Assembly (NCBI GenBank): GCA_038087875.1
Contig: JAXLNO010002167.1
Coordinates: 1-64,000 of the forward strand
Reading direction: 5' to 3'
Source of the DNA: Malacoraja senta
Taxonomy: Eukaryota
Length of the DNA stretch: 64,000 nucleotides
Part shown: piece by piece, positions 6,001-21,000 of the stretch
Layout: each line of letters opens with the position of its first letter
How positions within the stretch are numbered: the stretch's first letter is position 1
Made by a program: the position numbers

Positions 6001-9000
6001 TGCACACTGAGATTCTATGCATGTGCTTCGTTCAAATGCTTGCTTCCTGCTGCATGATTCCAAGTATTAGAAAAAAACTTTGGCTAATGTTTCTACACCA
6101 CATGGAAAATAAGAGGGAGCATTGACCATTTAGCACTTTAAACCAACATGATTATGGTTGGTCATCTATCTCTCCCCATCCCCCTTGAGGACTTTTTTTG
6201 AACTTCTACAGATGAAAAAATAGAGATCATATTGACTGGTTGCATCACGGACTGGTTCGGCAACTTGAATGCCCAGGAGCGAAGAAGACTGCACAAAGTG
6301 GTGTGCATGGCCCAGTCCATGACGGGTTCCGATCTCCCCACCAACGAAGGAATTTACAGGAGTCACTGGCTCAAAAAGGCATCCAGCATAATCAGAGAAC
6401 CACACCACCTAGGCCACACATTCATTTCACCCTTGCTATCGGAAAGAAGGCACAGGAGCCTGAAAACTATAGCATCCAGGTTCACGAATAGCTTCTTCCA
6501 TGCAGCCATCAGGCTATTAATTACTACAACCTCCAAATAAGCTCTGAACTAAGACTTGGGGGTACTGGTTTTGTCTTTTTGCACTATTTTTGTTTGTTTG
6601 TGGAAAATAAGAGGGGAAATTTAAACCAAAATGGTGATGGTCATCTATCTCTCCTCATCCCCCTTGAGACCTTTTGAGCCTGGAAGTTGTTCCACCTCCA
6701 TAAATATATTCAGTGACTTGGATTCTTAAGCCTTCTTAAGTGGCAAACTCCATACGGGTCATCACCCTTTGAGTGCAAATATTATTGCTCCTCAGTCCAT
6801 AATCTCTTGCTCAATAATGGGAGACGGTGACCCTCTTAGTCTAGTCTCCACAGCGTGGGAACCCTGTCCTGTTCTGCCAGGATGTTTAAAGTTTCTATGA
6901 GCTTTGTTGTTCATTTGCTAGGTGCTAATCCACCTCCCGCTCTATTCGAAATGATCTCCCAGGCAAATCTTGCCTTATCAAGTGTTGTTTCTGTCAGTAC
7001 ATCATCCAGCGCTTCCTAGATTTACTCCCATCACTCCAGAATATTCGATCATTTGTGGGAATGGTCACTTTTATCGATTGGTTCAAGATAGGTAATTGCA
7101 TTAATGCTGTATCCTTTATGTAAACTAGACTGACCCAGATTTCTTAACTGATGAATGCTGAGTGGTATAGAACACAATCAGCAGAACTTTTTATAATCTG
7201 AAGACTGAAGAGTGAAGGCTAGAGGGTTAGAATTGTGCGATACCACAGAGATAGAAATCTCAGTAATCCATCCTCAGTAATGGAATAGATAAATGGGCCA
7301 AAGCCTGTGATTCAAGATTGTGCTTTGCCAGTTACTGGACAGGAGATGGAAGCTATGACGACAAATCAAATTTTTAAATGTGGTCTGAGGCTAAAGGCTT
7401 TGTTCTTTCTTGCATTTATTTGGAGGAAAAGTTCTGGTCATTGAGTACCGGATGTTGGGTAATCAACCTGAAAATGTAGTGGAAAAATATAGAGGAGAAA
7501 TTGGAGTGGGACATTAGAGAATCAGCACCATTACTCTTCCCGTTAATCACTGAAAGGGACATATTTCACCTCAACATAATCCTGAACATGGGACTTCCTT
7601 CAGATTTTCTCCCGTCTTCTATTGTGACTCCGAGAGCTTATCCTGTCCACCTCCCCTTGCTCTCCTTTTGCGCTACGCCTTCCAAACTGTCTACTACACC
7701 ACATACATTCAAGGCCTCTCAGTTTTAATGACAACAAGGTCCATGTGAATTTTATGGAGGTGAATGAAAAAGCGATAAGATAATCAAGATGAATCTGTAG
7801 CAGAGAGCAGATAAGGTGTGAGAGAGGGTTAAAGGAGGGAAGAGTAAGGGTTCCTCATTGGGAAAAGGAACAAAGATGGATGATAGGCCATGTTTGAGTA
7901 GATTGGTGAATGTAGAATTGCAGCTGAAAACAGATGTTGTACTTGGAATTGTTGTTGCTATATTCTCACAGCAAAATCGAATTTGATAGTCAAGACAGAC
8001 CTTGACTTCCTCCAAGGATTCTATGGAGACACTGCAGACCAGTCCTACGTCTGGGTCACAGGTCACATTGTCTGGCGATTCATTTATTGGCCATTCAGGG
8101 AAATCGGCAAATTGGCACTCGACTTTTTTAATTGTATGGTAAATGGAAGGGCACAGATCTTGCCGTATGGATTCAAGTAATTCAGTATTGCCTGGACTGT
8201 ATTCAGATGGTGTGTGATCATTATACCATGCAGACCAGACACCATTACATTTCCAGTCTGGAAAAGGAGAAGCTTCCTTCAAGTGTTCATTAACCAAAAG
8301 TACAAAATAAAATAGCAAGATACATATTTCCTCATTTGATGGTATTTCTCAGCACTGGCCCGGTTTATAGTTGTGAAGATGTGCAGCACCTACTCCCAAA
8401 TCTCTGAAACATTTTGCCTTCTTTTGAATCACAATATTTTTGGATGACAAGATATATTAAATCAAAATAATCTGTGGAATACTCATTTGCATTTCACATA
8501 TTGGAGGCACATAATCATGAGCCTATTTCTGCCAATTATGCACATCACTAAATATTGTATCAACTGGTGTTGAATTCTTGATCAGCACAGTCTAATGGGA
8601 ATATTCACTGAAACACAGTCCTCTGAAGATTATCCATAATTTACAACACAAAGTCCACAGCTACAATTAATTCAAAAGCAAATGTTTAGAAAATGCATTA
8701 TCTGAGAAAGCTCAGTGAAAGTTGTACGTTGCTGCTTTCTCAATGGCTCACCCAGAGACCTGTGCCGACAAACTTGGTGCAAGGATAAACAACCGTCAAT
8801 CACTTACCAGCTGTGTAGCTGCGGGCCGATGTAGTTGTGGGTGGTACCTTTGTTGTTGTTGTTTCTGTAAAACATAAAAGATGTCACGGCAAGTTATAAT
8901 GCACACTGTTCCTCGATGACTTGGTATCAGGTCCATCTTTTCATTTTTTATTTCAAGGTGTAGGTACCACCAGCAATGCAGGCATCTATTGTCAATTCAC

Positions 9001-18000: not shown

Positions 18001-21000
18001 AAACTTGGTGCAAGGATAAACAGCCGTCAATCACTTACCAGCTGTGTAGCTGCGGGTCGATGTAGTTGTGGGTGGTAACTTTGTTGTTGTTGTTTCTGTA
18101 AAACATAAAAGATATCACAGCAAGTTATAATGCACACTGTTGCTCGATGACTTGGCATCAGGTCCATCTTTTCATTTTTTATTTCAGGGTGTAGGTACCA
18201 CCAGCAATGCAGGCATTTATTGCTGGTCAATTCACAATTGCCCCATGTTAAGGAGGCAAGTGCTCAACCTTCCATCAGCATCTTTTGTGTTTCCATTCAT
18301 CACATTCAGTTAGATTGTCATGTTAACAATAGATTTTCTTCTTCATGTTGCCCTTTAAATTGCAACATCAATCCAATGATGCCATCCTATCAAAGCAATC
18401 AATTAGGAAGAATAATGTGAGATACAATCAGTGATATTTTGTTCAAAGACGGAAGAATAAACCAGGTTCCTTTCGAGAACAATTGTGGGCAAGAAGTACT
18501 GTAATCCCACTGTTACCTGTTTAGTTTGTAGCTGGTAGTAGATGATGTTGTGGTCTGAAACTCTTTTGGTGAAGTTGTTTCTCAATGGTGTTAAGGAGTG
18601 ATAGAGAGTTAAAGAAGGGCAGAGTAAGAGTTCCTCATAGGGAAAGGTATCAAAGTTGAAGGATACTCTGTACTTTAGATCGGTGGCTTGAGAATTACTG
18701 CTGGAAATAGACAGAGGGAAGGAGGAAGGGAGAGTGGATGGACCGCAGCAGAAGGAAGTCGTCGGTGAGGGATAGAATTTTAAGAAAATGAGAAGTAGCA
18801 TGGCCACATGAAGAGTGGGGATTAATGGAGAGAATATGGGCTGGCTAGTTTGTACAGAGCTCATTAGAGGGGAAACGTGATAGATGGAAATGCATCTGGA
18901 ACTCTCACTGAAACAGAATAAAATTCCAAATGCCCCTTCAATAAAAGACAGTATCCTTGCACATGACTGGCATATTTACCTGAAATTGTTGTTGTTGATG
19001 TTGTACTTGGAGTTATTGTTGCTACATGCTCATAGCAAAATCGAATTTGATAGTCAAGACAGATGTTGACTTCCTCCAAAGACTCATTGGAGACTGTGCA
19101 GACCAGTCCTACGTCTGGGTCACAGGTCACATTGTCTGGTGTTTCATTTAGTGGCCAATAAGGGAAATCGACAAATTGACACTCAACTTCTTTAATTGTA
19201 CAGTAACTGGAAGGACACAGATCTTGCCGTATGGATTCCAGTAATTCAGTATCGCCTGGACTATATTCAGTTGGTTTGTGGTTATTATACCATGCAGACC
19301 AGACACCATTACATTTCCAGTCTGGAAAAGGAGAAGCAAAGGTTCAGTTCATCTTCCTTCAAGTGTTCATTAACCAAAAGTACAAAATAAAATAGCAAGA
19401 TACATATTTCCTCATTTGATGGTATTTCTCAGCACTGGCCCGGTTTATAGTTGTGAAGATGTGCAGCACCTACTCCCAAATTCCTGAAACATTTTGCCTT
19501 CTTTTGAATCACAATATTTTTGGATGACAAGATATATTAAATCAAAGTAATCTGTGGAATACTCATTTGCATTTCACATATTGGAGGCACATAATCATGA
19601 GCCTATTTCTGCCAATTATGCACATCACTGAATATTGTATCAACTGGTGTTGATTTCTTGATCAGCACAGTCTAATGGGAAAATTCACCGAAACACAGTC
19701 CTCTGAAGATTATCCATAATTTACAACACAAAGTCCACAGCTACAATTAATTCAAAAGCAAATGTTTAGAAAATGCATTATCTGAGAAAGCTGTGAAAGT
19801 TGTACGTTGCTGCTTTCTCAATGGCTCACCCAGAGACCTGTGCCGACAAACTTGGTGCAAGGATAAACAACCGTCAATCACTTACCAGCTGTGTAGCTGC
19901 GGGTCGATGTAGTTGTGGGTGGTACCTTTGTTGTTGTTGTTTCTGTAAAACATAAAAGATATCACAGCAAGTTATAATGCACACTGTTGCTCGATGACTT
20001 GGCATCAGGTCCATCTTTTCATTTTTTATTTCAGGGTGTAGGTACCACCAGCAATGCAGGCATTTATTGCTGGTCAATTCACAATTGCCCCATGTTAAGG
20101 AGGCAAGTGCACAACCTTCCATCAGCATCTTTTGTGTTTCCATTCATCACATTCAGTTAGATTGTCATGTTAACAATAGATTTTCTTCTTCATGTTGCCC
20201 TTTAAATTGCAACATCAATCCAATGATGCCATCCTATCAAAGCAATCAATTAGGAAGAATAATGTGAGATACAATCAGTGATATTTTGTTCAAAGACGGA
20301 AGAATAAACCAGGTTCCTTTCAAGAACAATTGTGGGCAAGAAGTACTGTAATCCCACTGTTACCTGTTTAGTTTGTAGCTGGTAGTAGATGATGTTGTGG
20401 TCTGAAACTCTTTTGGTGAAGTGGCCTGTCCCACTTGCGTGTCCTTGGCATGCAAATTAAGTGACCTCGTCATCGCGTTGAGGCGCACGGGCATCGTGTG
20501 GCCGCGCGGGGCCGCTTCCACTGAGAAGCGCGGAGGGGTATGGAGTTGTGCGCGGTATCGCGCGGCGTTCCGGAATTTTGTACCAAACGGAATCTTCGCG
20601 AGCAACCGACCCGTTGCGTAACTGACGGCCAAAGTGGGACAGGCCCAAGACCCTGGCGTGACGCAACCTCTCACCTCCAACAGCAGTAGAAGCAGGCAAA
20701 CGATCGTCGAACTCGGCCTGGGGCTCACGGCCATTGCGGATCCGATCCGTCCCCTCTTCTGCTCCCAGAGCGGGGCCAAGAAAATTGAGATAGACTCCTA
20801 CAAAATGTAGGAGTGACTCAGCGGGACCGGCAGCATATCTGGAGAGAAGGAATGGGTGACGTTTCAGGTCAAGACCCTTCTTTCAGACTGAAGAAGGGTC
20901 TCGACCCGAAACATCATCCATTCCTTCTCTCCAGAGATGCTGCCGGTCCCGCTGAGTTACTCCAGCATGTTGTAGCAATGTTACAATACTTACCTTCAGC

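What the first reader, a model, noticed from the sequence alone, without database searches (positions are those of the whole stretch)
8275..20421. Very young 1.85-kb exon+intron tandem expansion with sub-lineages
Seen: whole genomic units, introns included, are near-identical. The two units at ~8.3-12 kb share variants (NDHIPTE, DLGLVCIV, ICFDY), the four at ~12.5-20.4 kb share others (NNHKP, DVGLVCTV, ICLDY), and some variants are mosaic (NETSDN and NETPDN alternate; PTE reappears in the 18980 copy). Inference: ongoing unequal crossover or gene conversion. This would be a mucin VNTR whose unit is a spliced two-exon module, likely making CysD number polymorphic.
Basis: partly seen in the sequence, partly recalled or inferred. 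Interest (0 to 1): 0.65.

Follow-up and report, generated by a model that had tools for sequence, protein, structure and literature searches.

The report
Tandem CysD exon array in mucin
A cartilaginous-fish mucus-protein gene carries six nearly identical 1.85-kb copies of a two-exon building block, a real and tidy but fairly ordinary example of how mucins grow and reshuffle by tandem duplication.

Summary
Window 8273-20422 holds 6.6 head-to-tail units of 1843-1850 bp, 97.0-99.8% identical with introns included. The gene is on the minus strand. Each unit carries a 342-nt CysD exon (Pfam Mucin2_WxxW) and a 57-nt Thr-rich mini exon. Both have AG/GT sites and are phase 1-1, so any copy number stays in frame. 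VWD/C8/TIL exons of a gel-forming mucin lie upstream. The nearest relatives are elasmobranch mucins, the closest from a skate, so I do not take the contig for human. The two sub-lineages and the mosaic variants are real: 201 of 1378 site pairs fail the four-gamete test, and at least 99 of 1128 still fail in any unit register. The young array is nested in older, diverged copies of the same module, and an interspersed repeat cuts its 5' end. Relatives show the same design: a skate mucin model has six identical CysDs at a 134-aa period. Copy-number polymorphism, transcription and assembly correctness could not be tested. Exons show no detectable constraint since the split. Verdict: a new member of a known kind, of moderate interest.

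The parts
8273..20422 (-). Young tandem array: six full units (U1 8273-10117, U2 10118-11960, U3 11961-13810, U4 13811-15658, U5 15659-17505, U6 17506-19352) and one partial unit (U7p 19353-20422)
   Evidence: period 1843-1850 bp, 97.0-99.8% identity, introns included
18980..19321 (-). CysD exon of U6 (342 nt, phase 1-1), B type with PTE and NETP
   Evidence: ccag|AC ... CAG|gtaaat; open frame
17133..17474 (-). CysD exon of U5 (342 nt), B type, NETS
15286..15627 (-). CysD exon of U4 (342 nt), B type, NETP
13438..13779 (-). CysD exon of U3 (342 nt), B type, identical to that of U5
   Evidence: Pfam PF13330 E 9.3e-16
11588..11929 (-). CysD exon of U2 (342 nt), A type
   Evidence: Pfam PF13330 E 1.2e-13; sequence match to the solved MUC5B CysD 8oer, E 1.4e-10
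9745..10086 (-). CysD exon of U1 (342 nt), A type, identical to that of U2
19886..19942 (-). 57-nt Thr-rich mini exon of U7p. The same exon lies at 18039-18095, 16192-16248, 14344-14400, 12494-12550, 10651-10707 and 8808-8864
   Evidence: all seven read ttttacag|AA ... GCTG|gtaagt, phase 1-1, 18 whole codons TTTTK(V/L)PPTTTS...
11126..11189 (-). Exon relic inside the long intron of every full unit (U2 copy given). It has a weak acceptor (gag|) and runs 64 nt to its only GT, so including it would shift the frame
   Evidence: resembles a PTS block used in the skate model P0210
20423..21104 (.). Interspersed-repeat insertion that cuts the 5' (gene-sense) end of the array. It contains a palindrome with 85-nt arms
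   Evidence: parts recur at 32243-32313, 33660-33774, 34297-34382 and 63451-63546
21105..21186 (-). Relic of an older-type CysD exon, 90% identical to the array and frameshifted, just beyond the insertion
24896..24952 (-). Second CysD exon relic, followed by old intron
25414..25494 (-). Older mini exon (81 nt, phase 1-1) with a poly-Thr run encoded by an (ACA)n microsatellite
7943..8257 (-). Older CysD exon U0, 90.6% identical in DNA to the array exons. The acceptor is kept, the canonical donor is lost, so the 3' end is uncertain
5502..5567 (-). Older mini exon of U0 (66 nt, phase 1-1)
3263..3604 (-). Older CysD exon U-1 (342 nt, phase 1-1, intact), 69% identical in protein to the array type
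2183..2242 (-). Older mini exon of U-1 (60 nt, phase 1-1)
32470..63053 (-). Upstream exons of the same gene: VWD, C8 and TIL domains of the N-terminal D assemblies, colinear with elasmobranch mucin models

Best explanation
This is a real tandem amplification of a 1.85-kb genomic module inside the central CysD/PTS region of an elasmobranch gel-forming mucin gene of the MUC2/MUC5 family, on the minus strand. One module holds a 342-nt CysD exon, an intron of about 880 bp, a 57-nt Thr-rich mini exon and an intron of about 560 bp. Both exons begin and end in phase 1. Each added or lost module therefore changes the protein by exactly 133 residues, a roughly 100-residue CysD plus a linker of about 33 residues that can be glycosylated, and leaves the frame intact. 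One founder module already carried changes of its own (SSYC and FCYE). It was copied to six or more units by unequal homologous recombination between neighbouring units. Later exchanges, by further unequal crossovers or gene conversion, produced the hybrid unit U3 and the shared patches. The array sits within older, diverged copies of the same module, so this region has turned over more than once. Shown: the anatomy, the splice signals, the phases, the domain identity, the sub-lineages, the mosaicism and the same design in relatives. Inferred: the mechanism, that the exons are spliced as modelled, and the functional effect. That effect would be more CysD domains per chain, which should give more non-covalent cross-links and a tighter mucus mesh, by analogy with mammalian CYS-domain work.
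For: Repeat structure. All 6 of 6 CysD exons and 7 of 7 mini exons are open, have AG/GT sites and are multiples of three in phase 1-1. CysD identity: 4 of 4 exons tested match PF13330 above the curated cut-off, and there is a sequence match to the solved MUC5B, MUC2 and MUC5AC CysDs. Gene context: 10 of 10 upstream ORFs tested match VWD, C8 or TIL; 8 of the 10 reach the curated cut-off and two VWD end pieces fall just below it at 22.1 and 22.2 against 22.9 bits. These exons are colinear with shark and skate mucin models. Sub-lineages: 29 of 53 informative sites split U1+U2 from U3-U6. Exchange: 201 of 1378 site pairs fail the four-gamete test. A PHI-like statistic is 0.034 against 0.146 +/- 0.013 in 5000 site shuffles, and none of the shuffles is as low. 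Re-cutting the units in nine other registers leaves between 99 of 1128 and 191 of 1378 failing pairs. U3 equals U5 over its first 800 columns (0 differences) and then differs at 28 of 1047; its last 547 columns differ from U2 at one site (breakpoints chosen after seeing the data). Identity falls with distance in the array (0.989, 0.980, 0.975, 0.972, 0.972 for 1-5 units apart), as stepwise neighbour duplication predicts. Both lineages carry derived exon changes when polarised with the older copies. The founder-specific cysteine changes are in 6 of 6 young copies and in 0 of 3 older ones. Relatives: in the trees CysDs group by protein. Nine of 11 CysDs are identical in a Cetorhinus model, 5 of 7 in a Mustelus model and 6 of 9 in a Rhinoraja model, the last at a 134-aa period with a linker of the same build.
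Against: There is no transcript evidence for this window; the exon model rests on splice signals, phase and likeness to annotated relatives. Since the A/B split the CysD exon shows no sign of constraint: 10-12 nonsynonymous against 2-3 synonymous differences, pN/pS 0.9-1.7, and exon divergence of 3.8-4.1% against 2.5-2.8% in intron. None of these differs significantly from neutrality (Fisher p about 0.2, binomial p 0.75). The young copies could therefore be unconstrained. Open frames and intact splice sites prove little at 4% divergence or less. The high-identity zone spans 6.6 units, not a whole number, which a single simple duplication history does not give. The TE-linked loss at the 5' end and the older homologous flanks may explain this. 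The skate relative has the same six-plus-two layout, which speaks for an old array kept uniform and against a recent burst. A single assembly cannot exclude a wrong copy number.
Confidence: 0.7

Rival explanations
1. The array is old: about six CysD modules were already present in the common ancestor of this fish and skates. Their near-identity reflects continuing concerted evolution (gene conversion and balanced unequal exchange) and not a recent gain of copies.
For: The closest relative found, the Rhinoraja longicauda model P0210 (78.1% identity over 1254 aa of D-domain exons), has six identical CysDs followed by two diverged ones, a long PTS stretch and a distinct terminal CysD. The window has six young CysDs followed by two diverged ones. 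In the tree each species' six copies form their own group, and the relations among the groups are an unresolved polytomy. Mosaic tracts show that exchange does occur.
Against: Identity covers whole 1.85-kb units, and it drops sharply from 99% to 90.6% at the U1/U0 junction. This looks more like the edge of an amplified segment than the patchy tracts that conversion leaves. By identity the skate's amplified type is closest to the window's single-copy U-1 (81%), not to the window's array (64-65%), which suggests that different members were amplified in the two lineages. The match in number may be chance. The skate model is a protein prediction, and I could not see its DNA.
Confidence: 0.25
2. 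The copy number or the order of units is an assembly artefact, for example over-expansion of a shorter array or two haplotypes (A type and B type) joined in series.
For: Arrays of near-identical 1.85-kb units are hard to assemble. The A and B blocks differ by 2.5-4%, the order of difference that alleles can reach, and lie side by side. Nothing here shows read support.
Against: The window has no gap. Every unit carries private or rare variants, and a hybrid unit (U3) joins the A and B blocks in register. Identity decays smoothly with distance. Independent assemblies of relatives yield models with the same architecture.
Confidence: 0.07
3. The young units are real DNA but not functional coding sequence: the region is decaying, and the transcript skips some or all of these exons.
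For: Two neighbouring CysD exons are already relics (21105-21186 and 24896-24952). U0 has lost its canonical donor. Each unit holds a dead exon relic. pN/pS is about 1 within the array. The young copies changed one cysteine of the conserved CC pair.
Against: All 13 young exons keep strong splice signals and open frames. All eight cysteines and the WSAW motif are kept in 6 of 6 copies, and the cysteine count stays even. The older paralogues give dN/dS of 0.47-0.86, below 1. Relatives' annotated models include such arrays in their coding sequence. At this low divergence neutrality cannot be told from constraint.
Confidence: 0.1

Closest known systems
Elasmobranch gel-forming mucin models in public annotation, e.g. 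'mucin-5AC-like' of Rhinoraja longicauda (P0210) and Mustelus asterias (P0060), and the uncharacterized LOC144673104 of Cetorhinus maximus (P0059)
   Same: Colinear D-domain exons (57-78% identity). They are followed by arrays of identical or near-identical CysDs at a regular period (134, 162/204 and about 192 aa), short Thr-rich linkers built of roughly 20-aa blocks that start with E, and a distinct last CysD before the fourth VWD.
   Different: These are protein predictions only. Their DNA, introns and unit identity could not be examined here. The window's array is a different CysD sub-type with its own cysteine changes, and it shows two sub-lineages where the models show perfect identity.
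[quoted passage not shown]
   Same: A gel-forming mucin in which the number of CysD domains differs through tandem duplication of CysD-plus-PTS blocks.
   Different: In humans all of this lies inside one large central exon (exon 31). Here every CysD and every linker block is its own exon, with 0.56-0.88-kb introns repeated along with them. Polymorphism is shown in humans and untested here.
Chicken MUC2 and chicken Muc13 (PMC3549977; PMC1552070; passages read)
   Same: The central repetitive mucin region is split over many exons. The chicken MUC2 repeats with two CysDs span exons 32-45. In Muc13 each exon encodes one PTS repeat, and its authors raise alternative splicing as a way to vary length.
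   Different: The passages I read do not report near-identical introns or a young array with sub-lineages. The taxon and the repeat units differ.
Human LPA kringle IV-2 array (PMC4378929, passages read)
   Same: A coding tandem repeat whose unit is a whole genomic two-exon module (5.5 kb; exons of 160 and 182 bp). Variants are shared among copies through duplication or gene conversion.
   Different: The protein family is unrelated (kringle). The LPA unit encodes one domain split over its two exons, whereas here the unit encodes one domain plus a linker. Copy number of 1 to more than 40 is demonstrated in people, and nothing of the kind is shown here.
Human DMBT1 / salivary agglutinin SRCR-SID array (PMC9038570, passages read)
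   Same: A mucin-like glycoprotein built of tandem cysteine-rich domains alternating with short Ser/Thr-rich glycosylated spacers. The number of domains is set by copy-number variation of the underlying exons (7-21 SRCR domains).
   Different: The domains are SRCR, not CysD, and the protein is not a VWD-type polymer. That each SID has its own small exon is my recollection and was not seen in the passages read.

Membership tests
CysD domain (Pfam PF13330, Mucin2_WxxW) | Profile match above the curated gathering score | tested here: met
   4 of 4 exon translations tested score 51.9-65.0 bits against a cut-off of 22.4 and cover profile positions 1-87/88 of 88
CysD domain (Pfam PF13330, Mucin2_WxxW) | WxxW motif near the N-terminus | tested here: met
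   WSAW is present in all 8 intact copies
CysD domain (Pfam PF13330, Mucin2_WxxW) | Conserved set of paired cysteines | tested here: inconclusive
   All copies have 8 cysteines. In the six young copies the second Cys of the C-terminal CC is Tyr, and a new Cys appears at SSYC. The pairing could not be examined. That human CysDs have 10 cysteines is my recollection.
CysD domain (Pfam PF13330, Mucin2_WxxW) | CysD fold | not tested
   Tested by sequence only: phmmer match to the solved MUC5B CysD 8oer (E 1.4e-10) and to MUC2 and MUC5AC CysDs. No model was built.
Gel-forming mucin of the MUC2/MUC5 type | N-terminal VWD-C8-TIL assemblies | tested here: met
   10 of 10 upstream ORFs match VWD, C8 or TIL at E 1e-15 to 2e-4. 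8 of the 10 reach the curated cut-off, and two VWD end pieces score 22.1 and 22.2 against 22.9. The exons are colinear with residues 117-1183 of the Heptranchias mucin-2-like model.
Gel-forming mucin of the MUC2/MUC5 type | CysD domains interspersed with PTS sequence after D3 | tested here: met
   CysD exons alternate with Thr/Ser/Pro-rich exon tails and mini exons. The linkers are short, about 33 aa.
Gel-forming mucin of the MUC2/MUC5 type | C-terminal fourth VWD, VWC and cystine knot | not testable with these tools
   The 3' part of the gene lies beyond the window start. The relatives P0059, P0060 and P0210 continue into a VWD after the last CysD.
Coding multiallelic tandem repeat (VNTR/CNV of the LPA KIV-2 or DMBT1 kind) | Head-to-tail units that each contain whole exons and keep the reading frame | tested here: met
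   342 + 57 nt per unit, both exons phase 1-1
Coding multiallelic tandem repeat (VNTR/CNV of the LPA KIV-2 or DMBT1 kind) | Copy number differs among individuals | not testable with these tools
   There is one assembly only, with no reads and no second individual
Coding multiallelic tandem repeat (VNTR/CNV of the LPA KIV-2 or DMBT1 kind) | Paralogous variants shared among copies in a mosaic pattern | tested here: met
   at least 99 of 1128 site pairs are incompatible in any register; 0 of 5000 shuffles reach the observed clustering
Mammalian-type mucin central-exon VNTR | The whole PTS/CysD repeat region lies within one large exon | tested here: not met
   Stop codons in all frames and canonical introns separate every CysD and linker block

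The most novel reading that the evidence does not exclude
The array is a tunable cassette system. Every module is a phase-1 symmetric exon pair with near-identical introns. The fish could therefore vary the number of CysD cross-linking domains per mucin chain in two ways: between individuals through frequent unequal crossover, and within an individual through skipping of modules. On this reading the excess of amino-acid changes between the two sub-lineages (pN/pS up to 1.7) and the relocated cysteine reflect diversifying selection on the CysD surface, for example under pressure from microbes, and not neutral drift.
Probability: 0.15. Interest if true: 0.55.

Novelty: new member of a known kind. 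Interest (0 to 1): 0.35.

Why it matters
CysD domains are thought to set the mesh size and stiffness of mucus. Adding poly-CYS protein tightened mucus and slowed bacteria (PMC6861317, abstract read). In people the number of CysDs in MUC5AC varies, but the variation is buried in one giant exon that is hard to study. Here the same kind of variation is laid out as separate, frame-neutral exon modules with their introns. The history of duplication and exchange can therefore be read directly from neutral intron sites, and copy number could be typed by simple PCR or read depth. Together with the identical-CysD arrays in annotated shark and skate models, this suggests that the central mucin region turns over quickly throughout elasmobranchs. 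That is a useful comparative case for how mucus barriers evolve, but it is not a new principle.

Tried and rejected
- TRF found nothing in the array because its longest period is 500.
- Rfam at gathering threshold and ARAGORN found nothing in the window. There is thus no 7SL-derived or tRNA-derived element that would point to a primate origin.
I then used stop-free ORFs.
- I first took a third, 63-nt cassette exon in each unit as a serious candidate because it resembles PTS blocks in relatives. A recount showed 64 nt to its only GT donor and a gag acceptor, so including it would shift the frame. I now call it an exon relic.
- The alternating NETS/NETP pattern suggested a higher-order two-unit repeat, but only one site supports it.
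- Positive selection: pN/pS above 1 in some pairs is not significant.
- Conversion from the flanking older copies as the source of the A/B differences: derived states are spread over both lineages.
- The long open frames inside the introns and on the plus strand have no Pfam match in 6 of 6 tested.
- The listing of cluster members could not be used because its database was switched off.
- Six literature searches for a description of such arrays in cartilaginous fish, or of CysD exon arrays in general, found none. The searches cover the held library only.
- No structure model or complex prediction was run. The fold and the new cysteine's partner stay untested.

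
Full report
**What is there**

The window has no N. The repeat finder shows copies spaced 1843-1850 bp apart from 8273 to about 20430. TRF missed them only because its longest period is 500. blastn of one unit against the window gives six full units and a partial seventh:

- U1 8273-10117
- U2 10118-11960
- U3 11961-13810
- U4 13811-15658
- U5 15659-17505
- U6 17506-19352
- U7p 19353-20422 (partial)

Identity to the query unit U2 is 96.8-100%. Pairwise identity of the six full units in a MAFFT alignment is 97.0-99.8%.

**Strand and exons**

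The coding strand is minus. Each unit holds two exons with canonical signals.

- The CysD exon is 342 nt (in U2, 11929 down to 11588). It reads ...ccttttccag|AC...CAG|gtaaat.
- The mini exon is 57 nt (in U2, 10707 down to 10651). It reads ...ttttacag|AA...GCTG|gtaagt.

Both exons start with two bases of a split codon and end with one. They are phase 1-1 and multiples of three. The junction codons would be G|AA (Glu) and G|AC (Asp). All 6 of 6 CysD exons and 7 of 7 mini exons are intact. One module adds 133 residues.

I searched exons one by one. The joined (spliced) model was deliberately neither built nor searched.

**Exon relic**

A third exon-like stretch sits in the long intron of every full unit. 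It resembles PTS blocks in relatives. Its acceptor is gag|, and it runs 64 nt to its only GT, so including it would shift the frame. I call it a relic.

The long open frames in the introns and on the plus strand have no Pfam match in 6 of 6 tested.

**What gene and what organism**

Four of four CysD exon translations match Pfam Mucin2_WxxW well above the curated cut-off. The U2 exon also matches the solved CysDs of MUC5B, MUC2 and MUC5AC by sequence.

Upstream on the minus strand, between 63.0 and 32.5 kb, ten of ten ORFs tested match VWD, C8 or TIL. Eight reach the curated cut-off, and two VWD end pieces fall just below it. These exons are colinear with residues 117-1183 of a Heptranchias perlo 'mucin-2-like' model.

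All best named hits are sharks and rays. The closest is 'mucin-5AC-like' of the skate Rhinoraja longicauda, with 78.1% identity over 1254 aa of D-domain exons and 72% in the CysD.

Rfam finds no 7SL-type element in 64 kb. I therefore take the contig for a cartilaginous fish, probably a batoid, and not for human.

Lang et al. (PMC4948705, passages read) state that CysD marks the MUC2/MUC5 types and that the ghost shark has one Muc2 and one Muc5. Their supplementary domain figures, which I could not see, may bear on how such arrays look in Callorhinchus.

**Surroundings**

The young array is nested in older copies of the same module.

*On the 3' side in gene sense:*
- U0 has a CysD exon at about 7943-8257, which is 90.6% identical to the array. 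Its intron is only about 75% identical and has deletions. Its mini exon is at 5502-5567.
- U-1 has a CysD exon at 3263-3604, intact and 342 nt. Its mini exon is at 2183-2242.
- Identity falls from 99% to 90.6% right at the acceptor of U0.
- U0 has lost the canonical donor. The only phase-1 GT sites there are weak, or would create a stop codon with the next exon.

*On the 5' side:*
- The array stops at 20422 against a 682-bp insertion. Parts of that insertion recur at four other places in the window, and it holds a palindrome with 85-nt arms.
- Beyond the insertion lies an 82-bp frameshifted relic of an older-type CysD exon at 21105-21186.
- Further up are another relic at 24896-24952 and an older mini exon at 25414-25494.

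**Sub-lineages and mosaicism**

Of 53 parsimony-informative sites among the six full units, 29 split U1+U2 (type A) from U3-U6 (type B), and 12 split U1-U3 from U4-U6.

201 of 1378 site pairs fail the four-gamete test. Incompatible sites are clustered along the unit: a PHI-like statistic is 0.034 against 0.146 +/- 0.013 in 5000 shuffles, none of which is as low.

Part of this conflict comes from my arbitrary unit boundary. Re-cutting the units between alignment columns 1000 and 1450, around the mini exon, halves the conflicts. Even so, 99 of 1128 to 111 of 1431 pairs still fail.

- In the 1319 register the last duplication in the A block differs at 5 columns only, and one five-site tract groups the first B unit with type A.
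- U3 is a hybrid. It is identical to U5 over its first 800 columns and then differs from it at 28 of 1047. Its last 547 columns differ from U2 at one site. These breakpoints were picked after seeing the data, so the p-values are indicative only.
- U6 and U5 differ at 3 sites in the CysD exon and at none of 1448 intron sites. U5 and U3 have identical CysD exons but differ at 26 of 1448 intron sites.
- Identity declines with distance in the array (0.989 down to 0.972).

This is what unequal crossover between neighbouring units, with or without gene conversion, produces. Recurrent mutation alone would not give clustered tracts.

**Selection**

Between types A and B the CysD exon has 13-14 differences in 342 nt (3.8-4.1%), against 36-41 of about 1443 intron sites (2.5-2.8%). 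Of the exon differences, 10-12 are nonsynonymous and 2-3 synonymous, giving pN/pS of 0.9-1.7.

None of this departs significantly from neutrality: exon against intron gives Fisher p about 0.2, and the nonsynonymous share gives binomial p 0.75. Polarising with the older copies shows derived changes on both lineages. Against the older copies, dN/dS is 0.47-0.86.

Constraint on the family is therefore visible over the long term. For the young copies it cannot be shown or excluded.

**Relatives**

A scan of 1.84 billion representative proteins found 184 proteins with CysD matches at E up to 0.001. The two best, later named as Cetorhinus maximus and Mustelus asterias models, are colinear with the window's D exons. 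They carry 11 and 7 CysDs at regular spacing, with linkers built of roughly 20-aa blocks that start with E.

In a tree of 42 CysDs the domains group by protein. Nine of 11 are identical in the Cetorhinus model, 5 of 7 in Mustelus, 3 of 3 in a second Rhinoraja paralogue and 2 of 2 in Pristiophorus. The last CysD of each chain belongs to a separate, conserved type.

The closest relative, the Rhinoraja model P0210, has six identical CysDs at a 134-aa period with the same linker build. These are followed by two diverged CysDs, a long PTS stretch, a terminal CysD and a VWD. That is the same six-plus-two layout as in the window.

In the tree each species' six copies form their own group, and the deeper relations are an open polytomy. 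By identity the skate's amplified type is nearest to the window's single-copy U-1 (81%), not to the window's array (64-65%). I cannot decide between two readings: independent amplification of different founders, or an old array kept uniform in each lineage.

Three annotated isoforms of a Scyliorhinus canicula relative differ by internal blocks of 90-443 aa, and they hold 4, 3 and 2 CysDs. This fits a multi-exon, skippable central region, although such computed isoforms in repeats deserve caution.

**Comparison with what is known**

- Human MUC5AC varies in cys-domain number, but within one central exon (PMC11344006, passages; PMC9712336, passages).
- Multi-exon mucin domains are described for chicken Muc13, with one repeat per exon and alternative splicing proposed (PMC1552070, passages). 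In chicken MUC2 the repeats with two CysDs span exons 32-45 (PMC3549977, passages).
- Whole-module coding arrays with shared paralogous variants are classic in LPA KIV-2, which has a 5.5-kb two-exon unit in 1 to more than 40 copies (PMC4378929, passages). DMBT1 has 7-21 SRCR domains alternating with Ser/Thr-rich spacers (PMC9038570, passages).
- The zebrafish mucin paper adds nothing on exon structure (PMC4200417, passages).
- Six searches found no paper describing CysD exon arrays in cartilaginous fish or concerted evolution of CysDs. These cover the held library only.

**Function (inferred)**

More CysD modules per chain should mean more non-covalent cross-links and a tighter gel. This is by analogy with poly-CYS enrichment of mouse and cell-culture mucus (PMC6861317, abstract; PMC4431476, search listing only). 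Nothing here tests that in this fish.

**Verdict**

Exchange between units is statistically supported. The interpretation as a polymorphic VNTR is plausible but untested, and 'very young' may instead mean 'kept uniform'. It is a new member of known kinds (mucin CysD arrays, and whole-module coding tandem repeats), of moderate interest.

Noticed in passing
window 9745-19321 (six young CysD exons) compared with 7943-8257, 3263-3604 and 21105-21186: All six young CysDs have lost the second Cys of the conserved C-terminal CC (FCYE in place of FCCE). They have gained a Cys five residues after the DLC cysteine (SSYC in place of IYH, VSY or IYY). The count stays at eight, which may mean a relocated disulfide. 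None of the relatives' CysDs that I looked at shows this.
   Followed up: partly
window 20423-21104; also 32243-32313, 33660-33774, 34297-34382, 63451-63546: A dispersed repeat with a near-perfect palindrome (85-nt arms, 89% complementary, 8 nt apart at 20798-20975) cuts the array's 5' end. Smaller copies lie in introns of the D-domain region.
   Followed up: partly
window 7943-8000: The older CysD exon U0 keeps its acceptor and open frame but lacks the CAG|gtaaat donor of its relatives. One in-phase GT would create TAA with the next exon, and the other is weak. This exon may be skipped or dying.
   Followed up: partly
window 11126-11189 and the same place in U1 and U3-U6: A 64-nt relic of a PTS exon sits in the long intron of each unit. 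It is homologous to a block included once in the skate model (ETTLPTTKQ...). The B-type units have a better donor (CAG|gtaaca) than the A-type units (CGG|gtaaca).
   Followed up: yes
window 25414-25494, 5502-5567, 2183-2242 and the seven young mini exons: The mini exons differ in length (81, 66, 60 and 57 nt), mainly through the length of an (ACA)n run that encodes poly-Thr. TRF lists this run at 25456-25493 as (TTG)12.7. Microsatellite slippage therefore seems to tune linker length while keeping the frame.
   Followed up: partly
window 22792-23316 (+), 52064-52843 (-), 56644-57726 (+), 48182-48565 (+), 6202-6537 (+): Long ORFs look like pieces of retrotransposon proteins and share motifs with one another. 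The only one tested hit Pfam ALKBH8_N (E 6.6e-14). To my recollection that model picks up the tail of LINE ORF2 proteins.
   Followed up: partly
relatives P0214, P0260, P0227 (Scyliorhinus canicula isoforms X2, X33, X39): The annotated isoforms differ by internal blocks of 90, 426 and 443 aa, and they hold 4, 2 and 3 CysDs. This hints at module skipping in a related shark mucin.
   Followed up: partly
relatives listed: Several elasmobranch species carry many paralogues of this mucin family on one contig. They are named inconsistently as mucin-2-like, -5AC-like, -6-like or -19-like, so the automatic names say little about orthology.
   Followed up: no
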